Translations under genes and position numbers: made by a program
DNA from: an uncultured virus (IMG/VR IMGVR_UViG_3300023198_000928)
Taxonomy: Duplodnaviria > Heunggongvirae > Uroviricota > Caudoviricetes
Length of the DNA: 33,887 nucleotides
Reading direction: 5' to 3' (one strand)
Virus record (IMG/VR): IMGVR_UViG_3300023198_000928
Notes under the pieces: model-generated
The model's database searches: none
The model's input: only the letters and a program-made list of their open reading frames with translations
Told to the model about the DNA's origin: nothing
Shown here: positions 2,406-32,455 of the stretch, one piece after another
Layout: each line of letters starts with the position of its first letter
Position numbering within the stretch: position 1 is the stretch's first letter

Positions 2406-4109
2406 ATGTCTTCTATAAAAATTAAAGGTGGGATATTATATAAGAAAATGCAGATTGGAGGATCCATTTCTTTAAATAATAAAATTGGAAAAGAATTTAC
2501 TCGTAATTGGTTAAATAGTCCAATAACACAGGAAAAATATGCTGATAATCTTAGAGAAATGAGTACTGGAACTACAGAAAAATTCGAAAACCCATTACTT
2601 AAATCCAATTATTTGCCCTCTAGTTTAAATAGAGATAAATATCAACGCAAAGCTCAGGCAAATTTACTAAGTGGAGTACAAAATATAAATAAATCTAAAG
2701 TCAGAGTTCTTCCTCAACAACAAGGTCCTACGGCAGAATATACACCTTTTAACAAAACTGTAAATTATTATAGAGAAAATCCTACCGCAGGCACTGCTAC
2801 TCATGAATATACCCATGTAGGTAGTGATATAGGTAAGGAAAAAGGTATTGACAGACAATTAACAGAATATGTGATAGATAAATTTGGATTTAGTAGGGCC
2901 ATACGAGAAAAACATCCTACTGCTCCAACTACTCGAGAAGCTGTAAAAAAAGAATTTAATGTTAATGGTAATTTATTTCTTAATGACAAAATGAGAAATA
3001 TTGAGTATAAAACTCAAAAAGGTGAATTATATCCTAGATTTATGGAGATGAGACAATTTTTAAATGTTCAGCCAGGACAACCTATTGATGACATAATGAT
3101 TGACAAACTAATGAATAACAAGAAAACAGGAAGTACTGCTAGATTCTATACAAAAGAAAAACTTAAAAATATATTAAATACTATTGCATTTAACGATGCT
3201 CAATCTAATATGGGTAACACAAGAACTGCAGCTGCAGGAGGAATATTATATAAGAAAATGCAGTCAGGAGGCCCTGTAGTAGAACCTTTAGTACAAGAAG
3301 CTGCCAAAGATAAGATAGGGAATGTTAACTTTAATACTCCTGATTTATACCAAATTCCCACACCCACACCTCATATGAACCCCGAGCCTTCGGCTCCTTC
3401 TGACTTTAGTAATCTACAACGACTAAATAAGGCTATTGGTGGAGGTGTTGATTTTGGAAAAGTAATGGGATTTTTCGGGCAATTAGCTGAGGCTGAGAGC
3501 TTTGGAGGGAAGGAGTTAACGAATCCAAAAAGCAGTGCTCAAGGATACTTCCATTTCTTAATCGATAACGGTGGTGGATATAATAAAGCCGGTTCTAAGA
3601 TATATGGAGGAAACTATGACTCTAAAGGAAAGATAGCTAATTCTAGTTTTGGCTCAGCTAAACAGAGGATAAGAAATCTAAAAGATACTGCATATGCTCA
3701 AGCAATAGATAGGGATCCTCAATTGAAAGCTACTCTAGATAAAATATCCTCTACTAATAATATAAATGACTTAAATCCTGAAGAACAAGCAATGCTTGCA
3801 TATGTAAGTCTGAAGATGAAGAGTAATACTTTTAGTGACTTTTTAAGGGATGAAGAAACTGCTGAAAATGTATATATAAAAGATTGGGTTACATTGTCAG
3901 GGAAACATACTAAAAAGGGAATAAATAAAAATTGGAGAGACGCAGCAATTAGACGACAGCCGGGAGGAGAGGCATTCAACTTAGTAACCAGAGGTACATT
4001 AGATGAAGCTCTATTTGGTATAAAGTCATATAGATTAGGAGGTAAACCGCTTCCATCGCCTGCTACTGAATTTATAAATAAAATAAAAGAAGCTAATAGG
4101 TTAGTATAA
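2406..4109 (+). CDS. Putative virion protein: zincin metallopeptidase-like domain plus lysozyme/lytic transglycosylase-like domain
   Basis: THEYTH (HExxH) with downstream GELYPR; AEAESFGG...NPKSSAQGYFHF resembles the SLT ES...SSA.G.FQF motif; GGILYKKMQ.GG precedes each domain. Confidence 0.65.
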   Translation: MSSIKIKGGILYKKMQIGGSISLNNKIGKEFTRNWLNSPITQEKYADNLREMSTGTTEKFENPLLKSNYLPSSLNRDKYQRKAQANLLSGVQNINKSKVRVLPQQQGPTAEYTPFNKTVNYYRENPTAGTATHEYTHVGSDIGKEKGIDRQLTEYVIDKFGFSRAIREKHPTAPTTREAVKKEFNVNGNLFLNDKMRNIEYKTQKGELYPRFMEMRQFLNVQPGQPIDDIMIDKLMNNKKTGSTARFYTKEKLKNILNTIAFNDAQSNMGNTRTAAAGGILYKKMQSGGPVVEPLVQEAAKDKIGNVNFNTPDLYQIPTPTPHMNPEPSAPSDFSNLQRLNKAIGGGVDFGKVMGFFGQLAEAESFGGKELTNPKSSAQGYFHFLIDNGGGYNKAGSKIYGGNYDSKGKIANSSFGSAKQRIRNLKDTAYAQAIDRDPQLKATLDKISSTNNINDLNPEEQAMLAYVSLKMKSNTFSDFLRDEETAENVYIKDWVTLSGKHTKKGINKNWRDAAIRRQPGGEAFNLVTRGTLDEALFGIKSYRLGGKPLPSPATEFINKIKEANRLV

Positions 4110-4119
4110 TAAAAATCAC

Positions 4120-4127
4120 TATATTTG
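4120..4127 (+). promoter_or_regulatory. Bacteroidota sigma70-type -7 element for tRNA block 1
   Basis: TATATTTG matches TANNTTTG, 30 nt upstream of leader ORF 1. Confidence 0.6.
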
Positions 4128-4157
4128 TGTAACGAATTTACGAATTATAATTTAACT

Positions 4158-4244
4158 ATGAACAATATACAACTGCATATCGAGCGCCAGGAACCGTTAC
4201 AAAGTAATGGAAGGATCTCTGTATGTGGAGTCGATGGTTTATAG
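4158..4244 (+). CDS. Attenuator leader peptide 1 (MNNIQLHIERQEPLQSNGRISVCGVDGL)
   Basis: Codons 5-15 (caa ctg cat atc gag cgc cag gaa ccg tta caa) match the downstream Pro, Glu, Gln, His, Leu, Leu and Arg tRNAs. GAAGGATC 4210-4217 is complementary to the terminator 5' arm. Confidence 0.8.
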   Translation: MNNIQLHIERQEPLQSNGRISVCGVDGL

Positions 4245-4271
4245 CCCTTGGTGTAACATAATTAAAAAGAT

Positions 4272-4302
4272 GATCCTTCTAAGAAATTAGAGGGATTTTT
4301 TT
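4272..4302 (+). terminator. Intrinsic terminator (attenuator 1) just before tRNA-Pro
   Basis: GATCCTTCTAA-gaaa-TTAGAGGGATT stem followed by a T-run. Confidence 0.85.
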
Positions 4303-4312
4303 ATATCAAATT

Positions 4313-4386
4313 CTAGGTGTAGCGTAGTCAGGTAACGCGCGTGCTTTGGGTGTACGAGAACGGGAGTTCGAATCTCTCCATCTAGA
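4313..4386 (+). tRNA. trnP: tRNA-Pro(TGG)
   Basis: Cloverleaf; acceptor ctaggtg/catctag, anticodon loop tttgggt, T-loop ttcgaat. Confidence 0.93.
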
Positions 4387-4441
4387 CAAAAGGTTTTAGC
4401 CCTTCCCCGTGTGAGTAATTGACACAAAATGAAGAGCATCT

Positions 4442-4514
4442 GGCGCGGTCTTCTAGTGGATCAGGAATCCGGGTTTTCATCCCGGCAACCGGAGTTCGAT
4501 TCTCCGTCGCGCTA
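4442..4514 (+). tRNA. trnE: tRNA-Glu(TTC)
   Basis: Acceptor ggcgcgg/tcgcgct; anticodon arm ccggg-ttttcat-cccgg. Confidence 0.93.
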
Positions 4515-4605
4515 CAAAATGGTCACTATAGTAGCTAATAGTCGGTAAAAATCCGATTAATAGCTACCAGAGTAGCTAACTATTCGTGATTCGCGAATTG
4601 GAAAT

Positions 4606-4677
4606 TGGGTCGAAGTGTTATGGATGTGCACATCGGTTTTTGGTACCGAAAGACAGGGTTCGATGCCCGCGGCCCAC
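4606..4677 (+). tRNA. trnQ: tRNA-Gln(TTG)
   Basis: Acceptor tgggtcg/cggccca; arm tcggt-ttttggt-accga; bulged T-stem. Confidence 0.85.
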
Positions 4678-4679
4678 CT

Positions 4680-4753
4680 GTGTATGAAGCTAAAGTGGCC
4701 GAAGCGTCGGTTTGTGGTACCGAAGATAGGGGGTTCGAGTCTCCTCATACACC
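4680..4753 (+). tRNA. trnH: tRNA-His(GTG), no encoded G-1
   Basis: Acceptor gtgtatg/catacac with C73; arm tcggt-ttgtggt-accga. Confidence 0.9.
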
Positions 4754-4758
4754 CAAAA

Positions 4759-4843
4759 GCAGTAGGGAGGAATTATACTAGTTGATATAGCCTCGCCGCC
4801 CCGTGGAGGGAGGAAAAGCTCAGACTTATCACTGAGATACTGC
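4759..4843 (+). ncRNA. Putative structured multibranch RNA between tRNAs
   Basis: Closing stem gcagta/tactgc encloses hairpins gagg..cctc and ctcag-acttatca-ctgag. Confidence 0.4.
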
Positions 4844-4848
4844 AAAAT

Positions 4849-4933
4849 GCTCCTATGGCGGAACTAGGTAGACGCTCTAGATTTAGGATCTAGTATCAGT
4901 AATGGTGTGAGAGTTCGATTCTCTCTGGGAGTA
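4849..4933 (+). tRNA. trnL: tRNA-Leu(TAG)
   Basis: Acceptor gctccta/tgggagt; arm ctaga-tttagga-tctag; long variable arm. Confidence 0.93.
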
Positions 4934-4938
4934 CAATA

Positions 4939-5037
4939 GTCAGGATAGACGTGCAGTGATGTATGGATTACGCCTAGTATAGATTAATTATCTATTGATG
5001 AGGGGATAGAAATGAGAGGTTCCCTTTAAGTCCTGGC
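4939..5037 (+). ncRNA. Putative structured RNA between tRNAs
   Basis: Closing stem gtcagga/tcctggc; internal atagat-taatt-atctat and agggga..ttccct helices. Confidence 0.35.
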
Positions 5038-5048
5038 GACGTTATAAT

Positions 5049-5134
5049 GCCTTCGTGATGGAACTGGTAGACATAGCGGACTTAAAATCCGTGGGTCAGG
5101 AATGGCCGTGAGGGTTCGACTCCCTTCTTAGGTA
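5049..5134 (+). tRNA. trnL: tRNA-Leu(TAA)
   Basis: Arm gcgga-cttaaaa-tccgt; long variable arm; two acceptor mismatches. Confidence 0.9.
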
Positions 5135-5142
5135 CTAAATAC

Positions 5143-5216
5143 GGCTTGCTAGCTTAACTGAACAAAGCACTTGATTACGGCTCATGAGATTCGGGGTTTG
5201 AATCCCTGGCAGGCTT
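5143..5216 (+). tRNA. trnR: tRNA-Arg(ACG)
   Basis: Acceptor ggcttgc/gcaggct; loop ttacggc; T-loop tttgaat. Confidence 0.88.
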
Positions 5217-5270
5217 CTGATTTTCACTATTTTAATAGTATTATATTAATATAATTTATACCTTTAAGAT

Positions 5271-5516
5271 ATGAAAGTAAACACAAGACTTATAGAAGTT
5301 ATCGCCACTGATAAGGTTGATGTGGCAGATATGAAAGATGTACCAATTGTAACCTTTGCGGACTACTGGTATCATAAAAACGATCTTGCTATCTCAGAAG
5401 ATGGCACTAACACGATTCTTATAGGATTCAATGTGGGTAAAAATACTAATTCCTTATTTTTAAAGGATAGAGATGTTAAAGCTGGAGAAAAGTACAGATT
5501 AAAATTAAAAGATTAG
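5271..5516 (+). CDS. Hypothetical protein
   Basis: 81-aa ORF in a gap between tRNAs, preceded by a GTATTATA motif. Confidence 0.6.
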   Translation: MKVNTRLIEVIATDKVDVADMKDVPIVTFADYWYHKNDLAISEDGTNTILIGFNVGKNTNSLFLKDRDVKAGEKYRLKLKD

Positions 5517-5537
5517 TATATATTAGAATAATTTTCA

Positions 5538-5545
5538 TATATTTG
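5538..5545 (+). promoter_or_regulatory. Bacteroidota sigma70-type -7 element for tRNA block 2
   Basis: TATATTTG(TGTA), same context as 4120 and also 30 nt upstream of its leader ORF. Confidence 0.6.
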
Positions 5546-5575
5546 TGTAGGTTTAATAAAACATTTTAGCATTCA

Positions 5576-5656
5576 GTGAATTTAAGTATAAATATAGCGA
5601 CAAGAATTATGGTCGGGACGGATAAGTCTCCGAAAGGATCTTGTTGGTATGGATAA
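5576..5656 (+). CDS. Attenuator leader peptide 2 (GTG start; MNLSINIATRIMVGTDKSPKGSCWYG)
   Basis: Codons 7-17 (ata gcg aca aga att atg gtc ggg acg gat aag) match the block 2 tRNAs. AAGGATCTT 5634-5642 is complementary to AAGATCCTT 5680-5688. Confidence 0.8.
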   Translation: MNLSINIATRIMVGTDKSPKGSCWYG

Positions 5657-5681
5657 GTAAATTCACATACAATATAATAAA

Positions 5682-5714
5682 GATCCTTCTAACTTCCATT
5701 TAGAGGGATTTTTT
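5682..5714 (+). terminator. Intrinsic terminator (attenuator 2) just before tRNA-Ala
   Basis: GATCCTTCTAA-cttccat-TTAGAGGGATT plus T-run; stem arms identical to attenuator 1. Confidence 0.85.
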
Positions 5715-5725
5715 AGTTAACAACC

Positions 5726-5798
5726 GGCCCTGAAGCTCTACTGGCTGAGCATCTCCCTTGCACGGAGAAGGTTGCGAGTTCGAGTCTCGTCAGGCCCA
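5726..5798 (+). tRNA. trnA: tRNA-Ala(TGC), C3:C70 in place of G3:U70
   Basis: Arm tctcc-cttgcac-ggaga; acceptor ggccctg/caggccc. Confidence 0.85.
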
Positions 5799-5884
5799 CA
5801 ATAATGATTAGAAGATTATGTATTTAAGTAAGAAGAAATATAAACAGTAATTAGCCCTTTGAGAAATGAGGGTGTTATTTATAT

Positions 5885-5956
5885 GCCTTCGTAGCTTAAT
5901 GGTAAAGCAACTGACTTTTAATCAGTAGACCAAGAGATCGGTACTCTTCGAAGGTA
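5885..5956 (+). tRNA. trnK: tRNA-Lys(TTT)
   Basis: Acceptor gccttcg/cgaaggt; arm actga-cttttaa-tcagt; atypical T-loop atcggta. Confidence 0.88.
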
Positions 5957-5982
5957 CAAAGAAAGATTGGGCTAAATAAAAT

Positions 5983-6054
5983 TGGGTTATAGCTCAGGGG
6001 TAGAGCAGCTGTCCGATACACAGCAGGTCATCAGTTCAAATCTGATTAATCCTA
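5983..6054 (+). tRNA. trnI: tRNA-Ile(GAT)
   Basis: Arm gctgt-ccgatac-acagc (C33); T-loop ttcaaat. Confidence 0.88.
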
Positions 6055-6065
6055 CAAAAGAAAAC

Positions 6066-6138
6066 GCAGGTATAGTGTTAGCGTGTAGCATGCGAGCCTT
6101 CCAAGCTCAGGGGGTCAGTTCGAATCTGGTTACCTGCA
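6066..6138 (+). tRNA. trnG: tRNA-Gly(TCC)
   Basis: Acceptor gcaggta/tacctgc; loop cttccaa. Confidence 0.9.
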
Positions 6139-6149
6139 CAAAATTAAAT

Positions 6150-6221
6150 AGTGACGTAGCTCAGTGGTAGAGCAGTCGGTTCATATCCTTCAGGTCACGG
6201 GTTCAAATCCCGTCGTCGCAA
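6150..6221 (+). tRNA. trnM: tRNA(CAT), probably elongator Met
   Basis: Loop ttcatat; weak anticodon stem gtcgg/ccttc; canonical D and T arms. Confidence 0.75.
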
Positions 6222-6233
6222 CAAAGAAAAAAT

Positions 6234-6306
6234 CGCGAGGTAGAGCAGGGGCCAGCTCGTTGGGCTCATAACCCAGAGGTCGGCGGTTCGAATCCGTCCC
6301 TCGCTA
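6234..6306 (+). tRNA. trnfM: Initiator tRNA-fMet(CAT)
   Basis: C1:U72 mismatch; three consecutive G-C pairs in ttggg-ctcataa-cccag. Confidence 0.92.
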
Positions 6307-6364
6307 CTACAAATAAAGATAAGTTCAGGGCTTTCCCCCAGCGCGGGTTTTAGATTGAACAAAC

Positions 6365-6440
6365 GGTGGCGCAGCATACATGGGAGCATGGCGTCTGCCT
6401 GTCACGCAGAAGATTGCGGGTTCGAGTCCCGTCGTTACCG
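6365..6440 (+). tRNA. trnD: tRNA-Asp(GTC)
   Basis: Acceptor ggtggcg/cgttacc with G73; arm tctgc-ctgtcac-gcaga; atypical D-arm. Confidence 0.88.
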
Positions 6441-6454
6441 CAAAGTTTAGGAGA

Positions 6455-6537
6455 TATCCTAGACAACTATTAGAGTAAGGAGACCACTGTCCTACAGGTA
6501 GTGATCGACGCAGCAGGACCTTAACTCTCTTAGGATA
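6455..6537 (+). ncRNA. Putative long-hairpin RNA between tRNAs
   Basis: Nested stems tatccta/taggata and agagtaagg/ccttaactct. Confidence 0.35.
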
Positions 6538-6538
6538 A

Positions 6539-6611
6539 TCCGGAATAGCTCAATCGGTAGAGCAGCTGTTTTGTAATCAGCAGGTCGTCAGTTCGAGCCT
6601 GACTTTCGGAT
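6539..6611 (+). tRNA. trnT: tRNA-Thr(TGT)
   Basis: Acceptor tccggaa/tttcgga; loop tttgtaa. Confidence 0.9.
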
Positions 6612-6712
6612 CAAATAGTACTTAGAACACCTCTCGTGAAGTCTTGAAGTGTCCCAATCTAAGTCTTTTACGAGGAGATAGGTTACACGTGGCCGGGAAA
6701 GTCTCCTCACTT

Positions 6713-6786
6713 GCAGTGGTAGCTCAGGGGTAAAGAGCATCTGTTTTACATGCAGAGGGTCGATGGTTCGAATCCATCTCACTGTA
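6713..6786 (+). tRNA. trnV: tRNA-Val(TAC)
   Basis: Acceptor gcagtgg/tcactgt; arm tctgt-tttacat-gcaga. Confidence 0.92.
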
Positions 6787-6797
6787 CAAATTTACCA

Positions 6798-6871
6798 GGG
6801 ACTGTAGCTCAACTGAACAGAGCAGCATGCTTCTATCTTGCCGGTTGGGGGTTTGAATCCCTTCAGTCTCT
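6798..6871 (+). tRNA. trnR: tRNA-Arg(TCT)
   Basis: Acceptor gggactg/cagtctc; loop cttctat; T-loop tttgaat. Confidence 0.88.
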
Positions 6872-6877
6872 CTAAAT

Positions 6878-6951
6878 CGTCCTATAGCTCAGTAGGTCAG
6901 AGCAGGTCACTCATAATGATCAGGCCCTCGGTTCGATCCCGAGTAGGACAA
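6878..6951 (+). tRNA. trnI: tRNA(CAT), probably Ile2 (lysidine type, reads ATA)
   Basis: Arm ggtca-ctcataa-tgatc with A73; third CAT tRNA in the block. Confidence 0.75.
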
Positions 6952-7028
6952 CTAAATAGTAGCTATCATCATTACTTTGTCATATAAATTTTGTATTATA
7001 TAGAAGTAACATTCAATTTAAATTATAT

Positions 7029-7376
7029 ATGATTTACTACAAGAAAACCAATCGACCAGATCCCCGCCACACTCGCACATCATTTCAATCATTCAAAACC
7101 GGAGGTAACATTCTTTTAGGAGTAAAGAAGATCCCTAGCAGTATGAAAGAAACTATTAGTCCTTACATTATTAAAAGTAGTAAGTATCACGGTAAAAATG
7201 GAATAATTACTGGGCTAAGAAAACCATTAAATATGGACTCTGATGCAAGGGGACTAGGATTCGGTGCGGACAAGGATGGATTTTTTGTACATACTCATAG
7301 AGCTCGTAGTAAATCTTATCCTACTCCGTTCAAAATTCCTAAGGATAAAATTAAATTTATAAAATCCACTGGATAA
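7029..7376 (+). CDS. Basic hypothetical protein with a GG motif
   Basis: 115 aa; FKTGGNILL motif; GTATTATA upstream. Confidence 0.65.
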   Translation: MIYYKKTNRPDPRHTRTSFQSFKTGGNILLGVKKIPSSMKETISPYIIKSSKYHGKNGIITGLRKPLNMDSDARGLGFGADKDGFFVHTHRARSKSYPTPFKIPKDKIKFIKSTG

Positions 7377-7424
7377 TTCAAATATTTTTGTATCTTTATT
7401 ACTTAATATTAAAGACCGATATAC

Positions 7425-7577
7425 ATGGATTTTATTTTTGGATTACTAATAGGAGCTGTACTTGGAGGATTAATTGGAATCTTAGTGTACAGAAACAACG
7501 AAGAAAAAGCGAGTAAAATAGCAGATAAAGTTGACGATGTCGTAGAGGATATTAAAGATATAGGAAAAAAAGAATAA
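7425..7577 (+). CDS. Small membrane-anchored protein (YtxH-like pattern)
   Basis: MDFIFGLLIGAVLGGLIGILVYRNNEEKASKIADKVDDVVEDIKDIGKKE; stop lies 2 nt before leader 3. Confidence 0.7.
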   Translation: MDFIFGLLIGAVLGGLIGILVYRNNEEKASKIADKVDDVVEDIKDIGKKE

Positions 7578-7579
7578 TC

Positions 7580-7654
7580 ATGAAAGCAATTTATTGTACA
7601 TATAATAGTTTTAATTTTTGGTCGAATCGTTCGAGCAAGACTTCTATTGTATGA
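7580..7654 (+). CDS. Attenuator leader peptide 3 (MKAIYCTYNSFNFWSNRSSKTSIV)
   Basis: Codons 5-16 (tat tgt aca tat aat agt ttt aat ttt tgg tcg aat) match the Tyr, Cys, Asn, Ser, Ser, Phe and Trp tRNAs. GCAAGACTTC 7635-7644 is complementary to GAAGTCTTGC 7692-7701. Confidence 0.82.
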   Translation: MKAIYCTYNSFNFWSNRSSKTSIV

Positions 7655-7691
7655 TGTAAATTGAAAAACATATACTAATACTTAACCTAAG

Positions 7692-7720
7692 GAAGTCTTG
7701 CAGAAATGTAGGACTTTTTT
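7692..7720 (+). terminator. Intrinsic terminator (attenuator 3) before tRNA-Tyr
   Basis: GAAGTCTTGCA-gaaa-TGTAGGACTTT followed by a T-run. Confidence 0.85.
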
Positions 7721-7737
7721 ATGGTCTATAATAATCT

Positions 7738-7804
7738 GGATTAGCGGTGGTAGGGGCCGAGTCTGTAAAACTCTAGCCGGAAGGTTCGAATCCTTTCTAG
7801 TCCA
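7738..7804 (+). tRNA. trnY: tRNA-Tyr(GTA), atypical (reduced D-arm, short variable region)
   Basis: Acceptor ggattag/ctagtcc; arm gagt-ctgtaaa-actc; T-arm gaagg-ttcgaat-ccttt. Confidence 0.7.
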
Positions 7805-7862
7805 CAAAGTAAACGTATAAGTATACAAAACTCGAAAAAAGTAAACGTATGGCTGTACAAAC

Positions 7863-7951
7863 GGAAGGTGAAGCAGTGGCATTGGAGCTGCGACTAGTCT
7901 TGAAAACTAGGGGTCATTAGGTTGGCTGGGGATCGGGTCCTCCTCCTTCTT
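7863..7951 (+). tRNA. trnS: tRNA-Ser(TGA)
   Basis: Arm ctagt-cttgaaa-actag; long variable arm; atypical T-loop atcgggt. Confidence 0.8.
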
Positions 7952-8022
7952 CGTAGACAATGAGTGTTCAATAGTTGGTAGCTATAGCAGGACTGGTAAT
8001 CCATGGCTCATTGTACTTGTGT

Positions 8023-8107
8023 AGAGAGTAAACTGGACAGGCGCGCCAGATGCGATTGCTAATCGTTATGAGGGTAATACCTTTCGGTTCGAGACCGATT
8101 CTCTCTT
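8023..8107 (+). tRNA. trnS: tRNA-Ser(GCT)
   Basis: Acceptor agagag/ctctct; arm gcga-ttgctaa-tcgt; variable arm present. Confidence 0.82.
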
Positions 8108-8226
8108 CTAAATGAAGTAATAAGTTTTGAGCCGAATAAATTAAGTAATCAGCTCATGAAAAGTGAGAATGCAGCTCAAAATGATATGATAATGAGCCGT
8201 ATATATTAGTTTAGTGAGCAGTAAAT

Positions 8227-8298
8227 GTCTTGGTAGCTCAGTGGTAGAGCGTTTGCCTGTTAAGCAAGTTGTCGTGAGTTCGAATCTCACCCTTGACT
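8227..8298 (+). tRNA. trnN: tRNA-Asn(GTT)
   Basis: Arm tttgc-ctgttaa-gcaag; canonical D and T arms. Confidence 0.9.
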
Positions 8299-8385
8299 CA
8301 ATAAATGTTAAAATGTAGTAGATTATTATAATTATGTGATATATTTTTAGTAATATTGTATATATAATTATTAAAATACTATATT

Positions 8386-8715
8386 ATGGATGACAAGAAA
8401 ACAGAAAAAGTATTAGTAGGAGTTAGAATAGGAACTAAAGTAGAAGAAGGAGATCCTAAAATGTCATATAGACAAAGTATTAAGGCCTTTGGAAGTTTAG
8501 GTAAAGAAGTTAAGATTAGTCCTAAAGCACATGTGGTGTTAAATAAAGCTGGTTACAATGTAAAATATTATGTTGACAGTGTTAGTGTGACTATTGGAAT
8601 TGGAAATGATCATTCAGCTAGATTAGTTATGAGTGTAGATGCGTGGAATGCGCTTAATGATGGAGAGAAAATTAATGTGACGACTGTTAAAGAATTTGAA
8701 AGAGATTTTAGATAA
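8386..8715 (+). CDS. Hypothetical protein
   Basis: 109-aa ORF inside the tRNA array. Confidence 0.7.
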   Translation: MDDKKTEKVLVGVRIGTKVEEGDPKMSYRQSIKAFGSLGKEVKISPKAHVVLNKAGYNVKYYVDSVSVTIGIGNDHSARLVMSVDAWNALNDGEKINVTTVKEFERDFR

Positions 8716-8727
8716 TAAATAAAGTAT

Positions 8728-8800
8728 GTGTCTGTGTCCGAGAGGCTAAGGTAGATGGTTGCAACCCTGAAGATCGCTGGTTCGAGTCCAGTCAGACATT
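8728..8800 (+). tRNA. trnC: tRNA-Cys(GCA), weak anticodon stem
   Basis: Acceptor gtgtctg/cagacat with U73; loop ttgcaac. Confidence 0.8.
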
Positions 8801-8886
8801 CAAATAGACATCCTTATTATAGAAAATGGGGATAAATGAAAATAAGAGTAATCGCTAATTAAGAAAAGAGGCGAAAACTTAAATAA

Positions 8887-8959
8887 GCTTCAGAGACCCT
8901 CTGGGAAGGGTAGCAGCCTCCAAAACTGCTAGTTGTGGGTTCGAATCCTACCTGTCGCG
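8887..8959 (+). tRNA. trnW: tRNA-Trp(CCA)
   Basis: Loop ctccaaa; G73; T-arm gtggg-ttcgaat-cctac. Confidence 0.85.
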
Positions 8960-9107
8960 CAACTATATGTAAATGCGTATAGCGAAAACGGTTCTATTGG
9001 GCTGCGGACGATTACTATACGTAATAGCATATAATGGGGTGTATGATATATCATGCTAAGAGGACCATATTAAAGCTCTTTGAATGAGATACTGTACATA
9101 ATTAATT

Positions 9108-9180
9108 GGGTTAGTAGCAAAGGCGGTCAATGCAGCGGACTGAAAATCCGTAGATGGTGGTTCGATTCCACTCTATCCCA
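9108..9180 (+). tRNA. trnF: tRNA-Phe(GAA)
   Basis: Acceptor gggttag/ctatccc; arm gcgga-ctgaaaa-tccgt. Confidence 0.92.
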
Positions 9181-9212
9181 CTAAAGTAGATTATTTTCAG
9201 TATCTTTATATT

Positions 9213-9353
9213 ATGAAAGAAGTTAAAAGATGTTCAAAATGTGGTAAGAAACTATACGACAGTTTTACTAACCAGAATCACGACGAGAAATCATGTAAAG
9301 GAAAAAATACTACTCCTCCACCAGCAATAACTTATTCACCTGACTGCGCTTAA
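9213..9353 (+). CDS. Small putative zinc-binding protein
   Basis: MKEVKRCSKCGKKLY...H....C, 46 aa, hand-translated. Confidence 0.5.
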   Translation: MKEVKRCSKCGKKLYDSFTNQNHDEKSCKGKNTTPPPAITYSPDCA

Positions 9354-9362
9354 CCTAATTAT

Positions 9363-9671
9363 ATGAAGACGATTAGAAAAGTAGAACTTGAAAGAATTCA
9401 ATATCAGGACGAACTACCTGAACACGAGAAATTGGAAGAAAGAGTGCTTTATGTATCGAGAGAATATGACGTATCTAAACATAATTGTCTTTGCGGCTGC
9501 GGCGAATTGGTAGTACTCCCTTTCAATAATATCATAAATGGTGTAGACTACGGCTGGAAACTAATAGAGCACCCATCTGGTAAAATAACTATCACCCCAA
9601 GCGTCGGAAGTTTTTCTTTACCCTGCAAATCCCACTATATAATCACTAAGAACGTGGCTAATTTCGTATAG
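9363..9671 (+). CDS. DUF6527-like protein
   Basis: LYVS...H.CLCGCGE.VVLP...W.L...ITITPSVG...PCKSHYII pattern. Confidence 0.75.
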   Translation: MKTIRKVELERIQYQDELPEHEKLEERVLYVSREYDVSKHNCLCGCGELVVLPFNNIINGVDYGWKLIEHPSGKITITPSVGSFSLPCKSHYIITKNVANFV

Positions 9672-18936: not shown

Positions 18937-20946
18937 ATGTTCATAGACATTAAAAAACAAGTGCAAGAAAATTTTGCTGAGATGATATCCGGCAATAACC
19001 CACTATTTATTACTAATGTAGTTAAAGATAGTTTATGGGATACCTATTTAAATTCTTTCGAAGATCCTGATATTCGACAGGGAAATAACTGCAATAGCTG
19101 TAGAAGTTTCTTACGTCAGTATGGTAATATAGTATCAATCAAGGACAATAAGATAGTAACATTATGGGATTTTGAATGTGATGATGAAGAGTATGCTCCT
19201 GCTGTTAAAGCTTTGCGTAGATTGGTAGCATCTTCAGAGATTAGAAGTAAGTTTTTATCTCAATATGCTAAGTTAGGTGTTGATAAAAATAAGCAGACAT
19301 TAGAGAATGGTGAAATATTAATGTGGAATCATTTTCATATTAAATTACCTAGAAAATTTGTCTCTTCTAATGTTGATACAGTAATAGGTAAAGCTAGAGA
19401 TACTAGAAATATGTTTAAACGAGCATTAGATGAACTTACAGTTGATGCGTGTAAAACAGTGCTAGAATTGATTGGCCAGAATTCATTATATAGAGGTTCT
19501 GAATTTAAAACCTTAGTAGAACAATTCTTAAAAGCTAAGCTTGCTTATGATAAAGTAGCGGAAGAGCAGAAAAATAATTATGTATGGCTTACTAATGAAA
19601 TTACTCCAACATCTATAACTACTCTTAGAAACTCATCTATTGGTAAATTATTGATAGATTTATCTAAAAATGTTGAATTAGATAGAGCAGTTAAATCATT
19701 TGAAACCATAGTTGCTCCTACTAATTATAAGCGCCCAACTGCCTTAATAACTAAAGGTATGATTAAAGAAGCTGAGGCTAAAATAAAAGAAATGGGGTTA
19801 GAGAGCTCATTATCTAGAAGAATGGCAACTAAAGATGACATTAGTGTAAGTAACTTATTGTTTGTTGATAGAGGAACTAAAATAGCTGTAGAAGATCAAT
19901 CTCCTTTGGATGTACTAGCAGGAATGTCTGACAATGTACCAGTTAATCCTAAGAGTTTACAAAAGGTTGAAGAAATATCTATCGATGAGTTCCTAGATAA
20001 AGTTGTGCCTACTATTGAGAGTGCGGAAGTATTTCTTGAAAATAAGCATAATAACAATCTTATGTCTTTGGTTACTTCTGAAAATAATGATGCTCCTCCT
20101 CTATTTAAATGGGATAGTCCTGTTTCTTGGTCATATGTAAATAATGTGACTGACAGTATTAAAGAGCGTGTTAAAGCTCAGGGTGGTAATGTTACTGGTG
20201 AATTAAGATGCTCATTATCTTGGCATAATTATGATGATTTAGATATTCATATTAATGAGCCTGGTGTTGGTGGAAAGATTTATTATGGAAGTAAACGTTC
20301 TATCACTGGAGGTACTCTTGATGTTGATATGAATGCCGGAGGTAGGAGAAGTAAAGCTCCTGTTGAGAATGTAATATGGACCAATCCTACTAAAATGAGG
20401 GAAGGTGAATATTCTGTTACTATTAATAACTATGCACGCAGAGGAAATACTGACGTAGGCTACACTGTTCAAATAGAATGTAAAGGAGAGATCTTTGAAT
20501 TTTCACAAGCTAAATCACCTGGTAATCATAAATCTGCTAAACCTATTAAATTTACATATAGTAGAGCTGAAGGAGTTAAGTTTACTTCTGATGTTAAATC
20601 TAATGTAGTTAGTAAGGAAGTTTGGGGTATGGATACTAACATGTTCCATAAAGTTAATATGATTTTGAAGTCACCTAATTATTGGGATAAGACTATAGGT
20701 AATATGCACACATTCTTTATCTTAGACGACGCTAAAAGTGATGAGGCACCTAGAGGATTCTTTAATGAATTCTTAAAGACTGACTTAGAGAAGAACAGAA
20801 AGGTATTTGAAGTACTAGGTTCTAAACTTCAAGTTAATTTGAGAGAAGAGCAATTGAGTGGTATTGGATTTTCAAGTACTCAAAGAAATCATGTTATCTT
20901 ACGGGTTAACAGTAGATTTAGTAGATTATTAAAAGTAAAGTTTTAA
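18937..20946 (+). CDS. Large phage protein with N-terminal CxxC and C-terminal YfaP/DUF2135-like domain
   Basis: NCNSCRSF; SLSWHNYDDLDIH...GGTLDVDMNAG...VENVIW. Confidence 0.7.
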   Translation: MFIDIKKQVQENFAEMISGNNPLFITNVVKDSLWDTYLNSFEDPDIRQGNNCNSCRSFLRQYGNIVSIKDNKIVTLWDFECDDEEYAPAVKALRRLVASSEIRSKFLSQYAKLGVDKNKQTLENGEILMWNHFHIKLPRKFVSSNVDTVIGKARDTRNMFKRALDELTVDACKTVLELIGQNSLYRGSEFKTLVEQFLKAKLAYDKVAEEQKNNYVWLTNEITPTSITTLRNSSIGKLLIDLSKNVELDRAVKSFETIVAPTNYKRPTALITKGMIKEAEAKIKEMGLESSLSRRMATKDDISVSNLLFVDRGTKIAVEDQSPLDVLAGMSDNVPVNPKSLQKVEEISIDEFLDKVVPTIESAEVFLENKHNNNLMSLVTSENNDAPPLFKWDSPVSWSYVNNVTDSIKERVKAQGGNVTGELRCSLSWHNYDDLDIHINEPGVGGKIYYGSKRSITGGTLDVDMNAGGRRSKAPVENVIWTNPTKMREGEYSVTINNYARRGNTDVGYTVQIECKGEIFEFSQAKSPGNHKSAKPIKFTYSRAEGVKFTSDVKSNVVSKEVWGMDTNMFHKVNMILKSPNYWDKTIGNMHTFFILDDAKSDEAPRGFFNEFLKTDLEKNRKVFEVLGSKLQVNLREEQLSGIGFSSTQRNHVILRVNSRFSRLLKVKF

Positions 20947-25452: not shown

Positions 25453-26595
25453 ATGAAAGCAACAATAGTAATAGACCTTGGATACGGAGACAGTGGAAAA
25501 GGTATAGCAACAGATTATTTATGTGACCAAGCTAAGAACCCGGTAGTAGTAAGATTTTCGGGAGGTCAACAAGCAGGTCATACAGTAGTAAGAAATGGTA
25601 AGAAGCATACATTTTCAAACTTCGGATCAGGGACCTTTCAAGATGTACCCACATATTTTACAGAGCATACAACAGTTTATCCTAGTGCCATTGCAAGAGA
25701 GCAAGATAGATTAGCTGATTTAGGTGTTGAACCATTATTGGTAATTCATCCTTTAGCTAGATTAACAACTCCATATGATGTAATGCATAATAGAACGTGT
25801 ACTGATAACAAAGCACACGGCACTTGTGGAATGGGTGTTGGTAAAACTCACCATAGACATAATACTTCTGGATACAGACTCTATGCAGTGGACTTATTAT
25901 GTCCAGAGATATTACGGCAGAAGATGGAAAGAATTCGTGATGAATATTATGAAGCAGAATTTGGTGGAGATTTAGAATTAGATCTAATGTTGGAATTAGA
26001 AGAAGAGGAAAGAATATTTATGCAAGCTGTAAAAGGGCTTAAATGGATTATCAAAGGATATGAATTCTTAGAATGTTTTCACACTTTAGTATTCGAAGGT
26101 TCTCAAGGCGTTATGTTAGATAAAGATCACGGAGTATTTCCTCATGTGACATATTCTAATACTACATCTAAAGTTCCAATGGAGATCTGTGATAAATTAA
26201 ATATCTTAGATAGACAAGTATACCACGTTACTAGAGCATACTCTACAAAACACGGTTCCGGGCCTTATAATTCTTCAGGTAGACTAATTACTCTACAGAA
26301 TAATGATAAAGAGCATAATGTGACAAATAAATTTCAAGGAGAATTTTTAACCTCTCCCATGGATTATGAGATATTAAATCAAGCAATTCGCGTAGATGAA
26401 AGTTACACTAAAGGATACATGACTAATTTAATTGTTACATGTAATGACCAAATTGTTTTTCCTGAAAATGATTTTGATATTAACCAAGTAAATAAAAACT
26501 ATTATGAGGTTATGTATTCATATTCAGCTGAAACAATGGAATTAGTTGTAGCTAAAAAAGCAGTATTTAAACAGCGAGTTAACGCAGAAATTTAA
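25453..26595 (+). CDS. purA: Adenylosuccinate synthetase family protein (PurA-like, divergent)
   Basis: DLGYGDSGKG, RFSGGQQAGHT, HGTCGMGVG, FEGSQGVMLD, PHVTYSNT and TRAYSTKHGSGP motifs. Confidence 0.85.
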   Translation: MKATIVIDLGYGDSGKGIATDYLCDQAKNPVVVRFSGGQQAGHTVVRNGKKHTFSNFGSGTFQDVPTYFTEHTTVYPSAIAREQDRLADLGVEPLLVIHPLARLTTPYDVMHNRTCTDNKAHGTCGMGVGKTHHRHNTSGYRLYAVDLLCPEILRQKMERIRDEYYEAEFGGDLELDLMLELEEEERIFMQAVKGLKWIIKGYEFLECFHTLVFEGSQGVMLDKDHGVFPHVTYSNTTSKVPMEICDKLNILDRQVYHVTRAYSTKHGSGPYNSSGRLITLQNNDKEHNVTNKFQGEFLTSPMDYEILNQAIRVDESYTKGYMTNLIVTCNDQIVFPENDFDINQVNKNYYEVMYSYSAETMELVVAKKAVFKQRVNAEI

Positions 26596-32366: not shown

Positions 32367-32439
32367 GGCTTGATAGCTCAGTTGGTAGAGCAAAGGATTA
32401 AACGTCCGAGTGTCCTAGGTTCGATTCCTAGTCGAGCCA
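32367..32439 (+). tRNA. Orphan tRNA-Phe-like gene with aberrant anticodon arm (apparent AAA anticodon)
   Basis: Acceptor ggcttga/tcgagcc and canonical D/T arms; anticodon arm aagga-ttaaacg-tccga. Confidence 0.7.
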
Positions 32440-32455
32440 CTAAATAATATAAGTT

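What the first reader, a model, noticed from the sequence alone, without database searches (positions are those of the whole stretch)
4120..9180. Codon-matched leader-peptide attenuators controlling three phage tRNA blocks: a candidate tRNA-depletion sensor
Seen: the 25 tRNAs form three blocks, each preceded by a 24-28 codon ORF and an intrinsic terminator ending 10-17 nt before the first tRNA. Leader 1 codons 5-15: 10 of 11 are read by block 1 and all 7 tRNAs are sampled (Pro, Glu, Gln, His, Leu-TAG, Leu-TAA, Arg-ACG). Leader 2 codons 7-17: all 11 belong to block 2 (Ile2, Ala, Thr, Arg-TCT, Ile-GAT, Met, Val, Gly, Asp, Lys). Leader 3 codons 5-16: 11 of 12 belong to block 3 and all 7 are sampled (Tyr, Cys, Asn, Ser-GCT, Phe, Trp, Ser-TGA). 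Isoacceptors split correctly too: CGC in leader 1, AGA in leader 2. About 7 nt after each codon run sits an 8-10 nt segment perfectly complementary to the terminator 5' arm. Established: this is the architecture of trp/his/thr-type ribosome-mediated attenuators. Inference: stalling on any depleted, cleaved or uncharged tRNA causes read-through and supplies the block containing its replacement. That would act as an OR-gate counter-defence against anticodon nucleases (PrrC, RloC, PARIS/AriB, VapC-type) or starvation. I am not aware of leader-peptide attenuation being described for phage tRNA arrays.
Basis: partly seen in the sequence, partly recalled or inferred. Interest (0 to 1): 0.97.

Follow-up and report, generated by a model that had tools for sequence, protein, structure and literature searches.

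The report
Leader-peptide attenuators gating phage tRNA blocks
This phage places a tiny test gene, spelled almost entirely in the codons read by the tRNA genes that follow it, plus a switchable transcription stop in front of each of its three tRNA blocks, so it probably makes a block only when ribosomes decode those codons slowly; this control logic is well known for amino-acid operons, but I could not find it described for tRNA genes.

Summary
Three short ORFs (4158-4244, 5576-5656, 7580-7654) each precede an intrinsic terminator and a tRNA block of 7, 11 and 7 genes. Under strict wobble, the codon runs match their own block at 10/11, 10/11 and 11/12 codons. Shuffling tRNAs among blocks never reached the observed fit (0 of 200,000). 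Each leader folds as a long hairpin (z -3.7 to -6.5). With a ribosome modelled on codons 5-13, an 8-10 nt segment pairs with the terminator's 5' arm. Without a ribosome, or with one further downstream, it does not.

The same design occurs in cultured Cellulophaga phages phi17:2 and phi4:1, in one IMG/VR contig and in two metagenome contigs. That gives 13 units in 5 genomes, with 107 of 116 block anticodons sampled. In two of these genomes the tRNAs are partitioned differently, and the leaders follow the new partition.

Best reading: ribosome-mediated attenuators that feed decoding speed back onto tRNA supply. The anti-defence reading is possible but untested. There are no expression data. Nine literature searches found no published account. 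Earlier notes from this scan describe the same kind of element on other DNA.

The parts
4120..4129 (+). Promoter-like motif TATATTTGTG, 38 nt upstream of the leader 1 start
   Evidence: This 10-mer occurs exactly twice in the 33,887-base window, at 4120 and 5538. Each copy lies 38 nt before a leader start codon. It contains TAnnTTTG, the Bacteroidota -7 box, which I name from recall. On the + strand of 3900-9400, TAnnTTTG occurs only at 4120, 5538, 7383 and 7433, so none lies between a terminator and its tRNAs or inside a block.
4158..4244 (+). Leader ORF 1 (28 codons, MNNIQLHIERQEPLQSNGRISVCGVDGL). Test-codon run is codons 5-15 (4170-4202).
   Evidence: 10 of 11 codons are cognate to block 1 and 7 of 7 anticodons are sampled.
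4208..4218 (+). Region 2 of attenuator 1 (antiterminator strand); perfect 8-nt complement at 4210-4217
   Evidence: It pairs with the terminator 5' arm when a ribosome is modelled at codons 5-13. With no ribosome it is held in the leader hairpin.
4272..4302 (+). Intrinsic terminator 1 (11-bp stem, GAAA loop, 7 T)
   Evidence: -13.1 kcal/mol. tRNA-Pro starts 10 nt after the T-tract.
4313..5217 (+). tRNA block 1: Pro-TGG, Glu-TTC, Gln-TTG, His-GTG, Leu-TAG, Leu-TAA, Arg-ACG
5538..5547 (+). Second copy of TATATTTGTG, 38 nt upstream of the leader 2 start
5576..5656 (+). Leader ORF 2 (26 codons, GTG start, VNLSINIATRIMVGTDKSPKGSCWYG). Run is codons 7-17 (5594-5626).
   Evidence: 10 of 11 cognate under strict wobble and 11 of 11 by amino acid. 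The homologous leaders in L001 and L019 also begin with GTG.
5634..5642 (+). Region 2 of attenuator 2 (9-nt perfect complement of the terminator 5' arm)
5681..5714 (+). Intrinsic terminator 2 (12-bp stem, 7-nt loop, 6 T)
   Evidence: (-12.1 kcal/mol).
5726..6952 (+). tRNA block 2: Ala-TGC, Lys-TTT, Ile-GAT, Gly-TCC, three CAT tRNAs, Asp-GTC, Thr-TGT, Val-TAC, Arg-TCT
   Evidence: Which CAT tRNA is initiator, elongator Met or Ile2 was not determined.
7383..7390 (+). TAnnTTTG motif before the 50-aa ORF 7425-7577. Leader 3 starts 2 nt after that ORF's stop codon.
   Evidence: Leader 3 has no TATATTTGTG copy of its own and is probably co-transcribed with that ORF. In the close relative L019, leader 3 has its own repeated promoter-like motif.
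7580..7654 (+). Leader ORF 3 (24 codons, MKAIYCTYNSFNFWSNRSSKTSIV). Run is codons 5-16 (7592-7627).
   Evidence: 11 of 12 cognate and 7 of 7 anticodons sampled.
7635..7645 (+). Region 2 of attenuator 3 (10-nt perfect complement at 7635-7644)
7692..7720 (+). Intrinsic terminator 3 (11-bp stem, GAAA loop, 6 T)
   Evidence: (-12.7 kcal/mol).
7734..9181 (+). tRNA block 3: Tyr-GTA (short, weak call), Ser-TGA, Ser-GCT, Asn-GTT, Cys-GCA, Trp-CCA, Phe-GAA. An inserted 109-aa ORF lies at 8386-8715.

Best explanation
Each tRNA block is a transcription unit gated by a classical ribosome-mediated (leader-peptide) attenuator.

Proposed mechanism:
1. Transcription starts at a promoter about 38 nt upstream of the leader.
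2. A ribosome loads on the nascent leader and translates a run of 11-12 test codons. Together these sample essentially every tRNA species encoded in the block behind it.
3. If all of those codons are decoded quickly, the ribosome leaves the run. The 5' half of the leader (region 1) then pairs with the 3' half (region 2), the terminator hairpin forms, and transcription stops 10-17 nt before the first tRNA.
4. If any one of the codons is decoded slowly, because its tRNA is scarce, cleaved or uncharged, the ribosome sits on region 1. Region 2 is then free to pair with the terminator's 5' arm, and RNA polymerase reads into the tRNA genes.

The net effect is negative feedback. The phage makes a block of tRNAs when, and only as long as, the cell's capacity to decode that block's codons is limiting.

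The 25 tRNAs form a one-per-codon-box decoding set for all 20 amino acids plus an initiator. The three leaders together therefore monitor the whole code.

Shown here: the anatomy, the statistics, the thermodynamic switch and the comparative covariation. Inferred: translation of the leaders, the kinetic coupling, and the physiological trigger.
For: 1. Codon-to-block match far beyond chance in the window.
- 10/11, 10/11 and 11/12 cognate codons on own block; at most 6 of 11 on any other block.
- 0 of 200,000 tRNA-to-block permutations reach the observed fit.

2. Terminator and antiterminator geometry.
- 8, 9 and 10-nt perfect complements to the terminator 5' arm lie 7-8 nt after each run. Shuffles reach these lengths in 371, 142 and 10 of 20,000 trials.

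3. Fold switch in all three window leaders, on transcripts cut before the terminator 3' arm.
- No ribosome: long 1:2 hairpin, and the terminator arm does not pair with region 2.
- A-site at codons 5-13: region 2 pairs with the terminator arm over 9-11 bp.
- A-site at codons 15-17: region 2 is masked.

4. The leaders are strongly structured: z = -3.69, -6.54 and -4.95, with 0 of 200 shuffles folding as well.

5. The same design occurs in other genomes.
- Cellulophaga phages phi17:2_18 and phi4:1_13, locus L019 and loci L004 and L006.
- Permutation tests: L001 0/100,000; L004 9/100,000; L006 0/100,000; L019 0/100,000.

6. Leaders follow changed block content.
- In L006, Leu and Arg sit with Phe, Tyr, Ser, Trp and Cys, and the leader run reads LYSRCLSLWFR. 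Pro, Glu, Gln and His sit with Ala, Gly, Asp, Ile, Val, Lys, Met and Thr, and the leader run reads KIQHMAPATAIINQVEGKD, sampling 13 of 13 anticodons.
- In L004, Gln, Leu, Ser, Arg, His, Asn and Trp sit together, and the leader run reads LNHLHSNSNWLLRQSNR, sampling 9 of 9.
- Over 13 units, 107 of 116 distinct block anticodons have a cognate codon in the run.

7. Sequence evolution fits selection on set membership.
- Window versus L019: 13 of 17 replacements at in-set positions stay within the block's amino-acid set.
- The indel in the leader 1 run is an in-frame 3 nt.
- The region 2 and terminator part is nearly invariant, while the run region varies.

8. No bypass promoter motif was found. No TAnnTTTG motif lies between a terminator and its tRNAs or inside a block.

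9. Negative control. The same script finds no such unit in the phage T5 tRNA region: one weak hairpin, and a best small-ORF score of 7 of 11.
Against: - There is no expression, Ribo-seq or Term-seq evidence. No sequencing run could be listed for the stretch.
- The switch is an equilibrium MFE model with an assumed 30-nt ribosome footprint. Real attenuation is kinetic.
- With full-length RNA the terminator is always the most stable fold.
- In leader 1, a ribosome parked on the stop codon also gives the antiterminator in the model.
- In relatives the modelled switch is clean in only 2 of 7 units (L004 leader 1, L006 leader 1). In L001 leaders 2 and 3, L004 leader 2 and L006 leader 2 the terminator arm pairs upstream even without a ribosome. 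In L001 leader 1 the pairing is weak. L019 was not folded.
- Four of the 25 window tRNAs are sub-threshold or relaxed calls.
- Three relatives' tRNAs had their anticodons read by eye after I had seen the leaders: L004 Pro, the L004 CAT tRNA and L006 Tyr.
- One CAT tRNA per genome is assumed to be Ile2.
- Leader 3 has no promoter copy of its own.
- Amino-acid starvation would also cause read-through and futile tRNA synthesis.
- Five other fetched loci with tRNA arrays show no such units: L005, L009 and L012 (the same sequence), L010 and T5. The design is therefore lineage-restricted.
Confidence: 0.78

Rival explanations
1. Same device, but its selected function is specifically counter-defence. 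Cleavage or depletion of any one host tRNA by an anticodon nuclease (PrrC, RloC, PARIS, VapC-type) stalls the leader ribosome and triggers resupply of the block holding the replacement, acting as an OR gate.
For: Near-complete sampling of one test codon per tRNA (107 of 116) is what an any-one-missing detector needs. The 25 tRNAs form a full decoding set. Phage tRNAs acting against tRNA-targeting defences is established knowledge that I recall; I read no paper on it here.
Against: Nothing in the sequence separates this from plain supply-and-demand feedback. No nuclease, host or defence context is known for this window. I did not compare the anticodon loops with host tRNAs. The same checklist design also serves general homeostasis.
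Confidence: 0.2
2. The terminators are constitutive or leaky insulators between units, and the short ORFs are untranslated or encode unrelated micro-peptides. On this view the codon match is coincidence or a by-product of composition.
For: There is no direct evidence of translation. Short ORFs are common in AT-rich DNA: 266 ORFs of 20-45 codons occur in the window.
Against: Permutation and random-peptide tests reject chance. Only 2 of the 266 other small ORFs score 10 against any block, and neither lies before a tRNA. Leaders change with block content in L004 and L006. Replacements stay within the block's amino-acid set, and the leader 1 indel is in frame.
Confidence: 0.03
3. Ribosome-independent RNA sensing. 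The codon run pairs directly with tRNA anticodons, like a multi-specifier T-box, or the leader acts in trans as a small RNA or decoy.
For: The run is by construction complementary to the block's anticodons. Terminated leader RNAs of about 150 nt would accumulate.
Against: No T-box or other riboswitch family matched in 3900-9400 at E <= 0.1. The matching triplets are all in one frame, bounded by a start and a stop codon that are kept across 5 genomes. The match follows wobble decoding, for example CGC with anticodon ACG, rather than Watson-Crick pairing. The region 1:2, 2:3 and 3:4 layout is that of ribosome-mediated attenuators.
Confidence: 0.03

Closest known systems
Multivalent leader-peptide attenuators of enterobacterial amino-acid operons (thr leader with Thr and Ile codons; ilvGMEDA and ilvBN leaders with Ile, Leu and Val) and the single-amino-acid trp, his, leu and pheA leaders. 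Named from recall.
   Same: A short translated leader; a run of regulatory codons; a region 1:2 hairpin, a 2:3 antiterminator and a 3:4 intrinsic terminator; stalling on hungry codons gives read-through. All of these structural features were found here.
   Different: The regulated genes are tRNA genes, not biosynthetic enzymes. The run is not a repeat of one to three amino acids but a checklist of 6-10 different amino acids, about one codon per downstream tRNA and resolved to isoacceptor level. The product (tRNA) feeds back directly on the sensed quantity (decoding speed). The system is phage-borne and modular: three units cover all 20 amino acids. No Rfam leader family matched.
pheST (phenylalanyl-tRNA synthetase) operon attenuator of E. 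coli. Named from recall.
   Same: Leader-peptide attenuation applied to a gene of the translation apparatus rather than to biosynthesis.
   Different: It senses a single amino acid and regulates a synthetase protein, not tRNA genes.
T-box riboswitches of Gram-positive bacteria. Named from recall.
   Same: They sense the state of a specific tRNA and switch a terminator or antiterminator in front of translation-related genes.
   Different: T-boxes bind uncharged tRNA directly without a ribosome, use one specifier codon and have a conserved T-box sequence. None was detected here.
Phage tRNA arrays without this control, for example phage T5 (NC_005859).
   Same: A large array of about 23-25 tRNA genes, interspersed with small ORFs and HNH endonuclease genes.
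   Different: In T5 the annotated promoters sit directly before tRNAs, and my scan found no leader-terminator unit or codon-matched ORF.
Earlier notes of this scan on other DNA (e1-5836933, e1-6154969, e1-5870437, e1-6011797, e1-2978539).
   Same: They describe codon-matched leader-peptide attenuators in front of phage or spare tRNA blocks.
   Different: They concern other genomes. No look-alike stretch of this window is on record. They are unchecked AI notes and not independent evidence, and I could not examine their sequences.

Membership tests
Ribosome-mediated (leader-peptide) transcription attenuators | A short ORF with start and stop codons in the 5' leader of the regulated genes, conserved as an ORF in relatives | tested here: met
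   ORFs of 28, 26 and 24 codons. Homologous ORFs occur in L001/L002 and L019, and analogous ones in L004 and L006. The indel in the leader 1 run is in frame.
Ribosome-mediated (leader-peptide) transcription attenuators | Enrichment of regulatory codons that report on the regulated pathway | tested here: met
   10/11, 10/11 and 11/12 codons are cognate to the downstream tRNAs. 0 of 200,000 permutations reach this.
Ribosome-mediated (leader-peptide) transcription attenuators | An intrinsic terminator between the leader and the first regulated gene | tested here: met
   Stems of 11-12 bp followed by 6-7 T, ending 10-17 nt before the first tRNA. One search listed only the first; the others come from folding.
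Ribosome-mediated (leader-peptide) transcription attenuators | An antiterminator: a leader segment that pairs with the terminator 5' arm, mutually exclusive with the terminator | tested here: met
   Perfect complements of 8, 9 and 10 nt. Shuffles reach these lengths in 371, 142 and 10 of 20,000 trials. The segment pairs over 9-11 bp in constrained folds.
Ribosome-mediated (leader-peptide) transcription attenuators | An anti-antiterminator (region 1:2) that overlaps the regulatory codons, so that a stalled ribosome frees region 2 | tested here: met
   The switch is seen in all three window leaders and in L006 leader 1 and L004 leader 1. It is not clean in the 5 other relatives' units that were folded.
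Ribosome-mediated (leader-peptide) transcription attenuators | Read-through responds to the supply of the cognate charged tRNA and requires leader translation | not testable with these tools
   No RNA run could be listed. This needs reporter, Term-seq or in-vitro tests.
T-box riboswitch | Conserved T-box leader structure with specifier loop and T-box sequence | tested here: not met
   The Rfam scan of 3900-9400 at E <= 0.1 gave only tRNA matches plus two spurious low-score hits.
Rfam-curated amino-acid leader families (His_leader, Thr_leader, Trp_leader, Leu_leader and the like; names recalled) | A match to the family covariance model | tested here: not met
   No such match, nor in the 8 related loci scanned at E <= 1.

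The most novel reading that the evidence does not exclude
The leaders are per-tRNA checklists: about one test codon for every tRNA species in the block, with 107 of 116 sampled over 13 units. The phage therefore runs a continuous, isoacceptor-resolved audit of the cell's decoding capacity. It resupplies exactly the module in which any single tRNA is depleted, cleaved by an anticodon nuclease, or lost through phage-induced host shut-off. That would be the first case of tRNA genes controlled by the translation speed of their own codons. It would also be a built-in, self-limiting counter-measure to tRNA-targeting immunity, modular enough to be re-partitioned in evolution, with leaders and blocks co-evolving.
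Probability: 0.3. Interest if true: 0.95.

Novelty: new variant of a known kind. Interest (0 to 1): 0.9.

Why it matters
How phages control their tRNA genes is largely unknown, and tRNA genes in general are thought to be governed by promoter-level growth-rate and stringent control. A leader peptide that samples every tRNA of the block behind it would have three consequences:
- It extends attenuation from metabolite supply to the decoding machinery itself.
- It offers a mechanism for on-demand tRNA production during infection, relevant to host shut-off, codon-usage mismatch and tRNA-cleaving defence systems.
- It provides a natural multi-input OR-gate sensor of codon-specific translation speed that could be reused as a reporter.

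The design is present in cultured Cellulophaga phages with laboratory hosts, so it can be tested directly. The co-variation of leader and block content also gives a sequence-only way to predict which tRNAs are co-transcribed.

Tried and rejected
- Whole-genome context: no genome is held for this window.
- Sequencing runs: none was listed for 4100-9200, and no RNA holder was listed.
- The upstream 567-aa tail-like protein has no relatives in viral contigs.
- The 669-aa phrog_1735 protein is too widespread to mark close relatives: 553 records, all below 60% identity.
- His/Cys D-arm pattern searches:
  - The 23-nt form found only phi4:1 in viral contigs.
  - The 21-nt form found 9 metagenome loci, of which two (L004, L006) carry units. 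L011 is an L004-like array cut at the contig end. L007 is too short. L008 has no tRNA there. L005, L009 and L012 (the same sequence) and L010 show ordinary genes in the gaps and no units.
  - In viral contigs, L014, L015 and L017 carry the pattern outside tRNAs. L016 has the same length and match position as L011 but was not analysed.
  - There were 0 matches in genome contigs.
- crAss-like phage cr115_1 has only scattered tRNAs and was not informative.
- Phage T5, used as a control, has no units.
- RNA covariation from the two-sequence window/L019 alignment is uninformative. Only 2 of 38 pairs show double changes, and region 2 and the terminator are invariant.
- Chance, a T-box-like sensor and insulator-only readings are rejected for the reasons given under the rival explanations.
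- Literature. Nine full-text searches and a term search inside PMC6409571 (0 hits for attenuat, terminator, leader and promoter) found no account of leader-peptide attenuation of tRNA genes. For all other papers I saw only search listings and abstract starts. Subscription journals are not covered. The search for leader peptides in Bacteroidetes returned nothing useful, so the statement that the host phylum uses leader-peptide attenuation rests on recall.

Full report
**What is there.** The window is a fragment of a low-GC (29-41%) tailed-phage genome. Between 4120 and 9181, all on the + strand, lie 25 tRNA genes in three blocks. ARAGORN at default settings finds 21 of them. Rfam adds Gly-TCC (45.1 bits), Cys-GCA (36.2 bits) and a short Tyr-GTA (25.1 bits, below the gathering score of 29). 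ARAGORN with a lowered threshold adds Ser-GCT and confirms the other three.

The set has one tRNA per two-codon box, one U34 tRNA per four-codon box, Arg-ACG and three CAT tRNAs. That is a full decoding set for 20 amino acids plus an initiator. Which CAT tRNA is Ile2 was not determined.

Each block is preceded by a short ORF (4158-4244, 5576-5656, 7580-7654) and a hairpin followed by 6-7 T. The T-tract ends 10-17 nt before the first tRNA.

**Is the codon match real?** Under strict wobble rules, the best runs are:
- leader 1, codons 5-15: 10 of 11 cognate to block 1, all 7 anticodons sampled;
- leader 2, codons 7-17: 10 of 11 (11 of 11 by amino acid; GTC needs extended U34 wobble);
- leader 3, codons 5-16: 11 of 12, all 7 sampled.

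Arg isoacceptors are split correctly: CGC in unit 1 and AGA in unit 2. The leader-by-block matrix of best 11-codon windows is 10/10/10 on the diagonal and at most 6 off it. Random peptides drawn from the phage's own codon usage reach the observed values with P = 2.5e-5, 5.7e-3 and 0 of 200,000. Shuffling the 25 tRNAs among blocks of 7, 11 and 7 never reached the observed sum of 30 in 200,000 trials; the maximum was 26. Among 266 small ORFs in all six frames of the window, only two others score 10 against any block, and neither lies near a tRNA.

**Is it an attenuator?** Each leader region is far more structured than shuffles (z = -3.69, -6.54, -4.95; 0 of 200 shuffles fold as well). In the full-length fold, the whole leader ORF forms one long hairpin in which the 5' half pairs with the 3' half. 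In leaders 1 and 2 the start-codon region lies at the base of that stem. The terminator hairpin follows.

A segment 7-8 nt after each run is perfectly complementary to the terminator 5' arm over 8, 9 and 10 nt. Shuffled leaders reach those lengths in 371, 142 and 10 of 20,000 trials.

I then folded transcripts cut before the terminator 3' arm, which is the state in which the decision is taken, with a 30-nt stretch masked as a ribosome. All three leaders behave alike:
- with no ribosome, the leader hairpin forms and the terminator arm does not pair with region 2;
- with the A-site at codons 5-13, that segment (4208-4218, 5634-5642, 7635-7645) pairs with the terminator arm over 9-11 bp;
- with the A-site at codons 15-17, the segment is covered and the pairing is lost.

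This is the region 1:2, 2:3 and 3:4 logic of the classical trp, his and thr attenuators. The caveats are real. These are equilibrium folds with an assumed footprint. With full-length RNA the terminator always wins. For leader 1, a ribosome parked on the stop codon also gives the antiterminator in the model.

**Promoters.** The 10-mer TATATTTGTG occurs exactly twice in the 33.9-kb window, each time 38 nt before the start codon of leader 1 or leader 2. It contains TAnnTTTG, which I recall as the Bacteroidota -7 box. Within 3900-9400 that motif occurs on the + strand only at 4120, 5538, 7383 and 7433, so none lies between a terminator and its tRNAs or inside a block. Leader 3 starts 2 nt after the stop of a 50-aa ORF (phrog_3879) and probably shares that ORF's promoter. 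No terminator follows blocks 1 or 2, so transcripts that read through one block should run on to the next attenuator.

**Relatives.** The nearest GenBank records are Cellulophaga phages phi17:2 and phi4:1 (Lightbulbvirus; 72-73% identity, tRNAs only). They have the same block order. At the same three places they carry leaders with different sequences but the same composition: MKIQRLHLQELEQPIISGGTGV, a GTG-start leader with TKTGITVIDKTKGAR, and MKTNYCTYNNSNWSFSY..., each followed by a terminator.

A spacer-motif scan found a closer relative, L019, with leaders MIKVLRHIELLEQPLQ..., VNSVMDIATIVRVGGIDK... and MKAIVCSYSNYNFWS.... A scan for an unusual His/Cys D-arm motif found two metagenome loci, L004 and L006, whose arrays are partitioned differently.

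In L006, one unit holds Phe, Tyr, Ser, Trp, Cys, Ser, Leu, Arg, Arg and Leu behind a leader run LYSRCLSLWFR, which samples 10 of 10 anticodons including both Arg isoacceptors. The other holds Pro, Ala, Gly, Asp, Ile, Val, Ile-TAT, Lys, Met, Glu, Thr, Gln and His behind KIQHMAPATAIINQVEGKD, which samples 13 of 13.

In L004, one unit holds Pro, Tyr, Lys, Phe, Asp, Ala, Thr, Gly, CAT, Cys, Ile and Val behind MNTFIPTYTTCDYGFIKPVVGDYM. The other holds Gln, Leu, Ser, Leu, Ser, Arg, His, Asn and Trp behind LNHLHSNSNWLLRQSNR, which samples 9 of 9.

Permutation tests give 0/100,000 (L001), 9/100,000 (L004), 0/100,000 (L006) and 0/100,000 (L019). Over the 13 units in 5 genomes, 107 of 116 distinct block anticodons have a cognate codon inside the run.

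Two cautions apply. The anticodons of three tRNAs in L004 and L006 were read by eye after I had seen the leaders. Blocks were defined as all tRNAs between successive leader-terminator units.

**How the leaders evolve.** Between the window and L019, 13 of 17 replacements at positions occupied by an in-set residue stay within the block's amino-acid set. The leader 1 nucleotide alignment shows one in-frame 3-nt indel in the run, many changes in the run, and near-invariance of region 2 and the terminator. The two-sequence RNA covariation is uninformative. Codons 2-4 of the leaders are mostly AAT, AAA or ATA-type and not block-matched. I read this as fitting an A-rich initiation region; that is an inference.

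**Limits and negatives.**
- The modelled switch is clean in only 2 of the 7 relatives' units folded.
- Other fetched tRNA arrays show no such units: L005, L009 and L012, L010 and phage T5, used as a control. The design is lineage-restricted.
- No whole genome, no sequencing run and no RNA data were available.

**What it most likely does.** The best reading is ribosome-mediated attenuation that makes each tRNA block inducible by slow decoding of that block's own codons. This is a negative feedback on decoding capacity (confidence 0.78).

The trigger could be decay of host tRNAs during infection, a mismatch between phage codon demand and host supply, or cleavage by anticodon nucleases. The sequence cannot tell these apart. 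Starvation is a poor rationale, because more tRNA does not cure a lack of amino acid.

**Known or new.**
- The mechanism belongs to a known kind, leader-peptide attenuation. All structural membership features were tested and met; the functional one cannot be tested here.
- What differs from every described member I know is the target (tRNA genes), the checklist composition (6-10 amino acids, about one codon per tRNA, isoacceptor-resolved) and the modular phage setting.
- No Rfam leader or T-box family matched.
- Nine full-text searches and one in-paper term search found no published account. Subscription literature is not covered.
- Notes from this same scan describe the same kind of element on five other stretches of DNA. 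They are unchecked AI notes on other genomes, and no look-alike of this window is on record.

**Verdict.**
- Observation: confirmed.
- Attenuator reading: well supported in silico.
- Defence reading: open.
- Novelty: new variant of a known kind.
- Interest: high, because the design is present in cultured Cellulophaga phages and can be tested directly.

Noticed in passing
window 6620-6700; L001 7620-7700; L019 5995-6075: A non-tRNA stretch of about 26 nt (ACACCTCTCGTGAAGTnTTGAAGTG) in the spacer between tRNA-Thr and tRNA-Val is conserved in the window, the Cellulophaga phages and L019, although the surrounding spacers are not. In the window and L019 a downstream segment looks able to pair with it, which I judged by eye only. 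It might be a small RNA or a processing signal.
   Followed up: partly
window 7734-7807; L006 4338-4408; L019 7420-7500 and 7955-8038: The window's tRNA-Tyr is a roughly 70-nt form without the long variable arm that bacterial tRNA-Tyr normally has (the norm is recalled). Its Rfam score is only 25.1 bits. A similar short form is in L006. In L019 a truncated copy is followed by an HNH endonuclease ORF and then a normal 84-nt Tyr tRNA.
   Followed up: partly
L004 898-1346 and 2766-3250; L019 7502-7951; window 8386-8715: ORFs sit inside tRNA blocks in the relatives. I judged them HNH-type homing endonucleases by eye from Cys and His motifs; no family search was run. L011 has the L004-like array without the insertion. 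The window's in-block 109-aa ORF has no PHROG match.
   Followed up: no
window 32367-32440: A lone tRNA-like gene far from the array, called Phe with anticodon AAA by ARAGORN. Its anticodon stem-loop does not fold canonically by eye. It could be a suppressor-like or degenerate tRNA.
   Followed up: no
window 25453-26595: A 380-aa protein matches phrog_1211, labelled '2-aminooxy adenylosuccinate synthetase' (E = 1.6e-54). This PurZ/PurA-like enzyme might point to a modified adenine in the phage DNA.
   Followed up: no
window 18937-20946: A 669-aa protein (phrog_1735, E = 2e-244) has 43-46% identical homologues in the listed Klebsiella, Salmonella, Serratia and Proteus phage records (553 records in all, every one below 60% identity). 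It is annotated variously as hypothetical, DUF2135 or DNA-directed RNA polymerase. If it is a phage RNA polymerase, which polymerase reads the tRNA units becomes a question.
   Followed up: no
window 4684-4704 and His/Cys tRNAs of L001-L012: The D-arm motif GAAGCTAAAGTGGNCGAAGCG is shared by phage His and Cys tRNAs in several unrelated contigs. It has 0 matches in the representative genomes of 185,579 prokaryote species, so it looks like a phage-specific tRNA signature.
   Followed up: partly
L005 1590-1780 (- strand): A group I intron match (Rfam 73.6 bits) lies within a metagenomic phage tRNA array.
   Followed up: no
window 4156-4244, 5576-5664: In the full-length folds of leaders 1 and 2, the start codon is paired with the stop-codon region at the base of the leader hairpin. 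Only a ribosome that loads during transcription could then translate the leader. This may restrict sensing to one pioneering ribosome per transcript. In leader 3 the start codon is unpaired in the minimum-energy fold.
   Followed up: no
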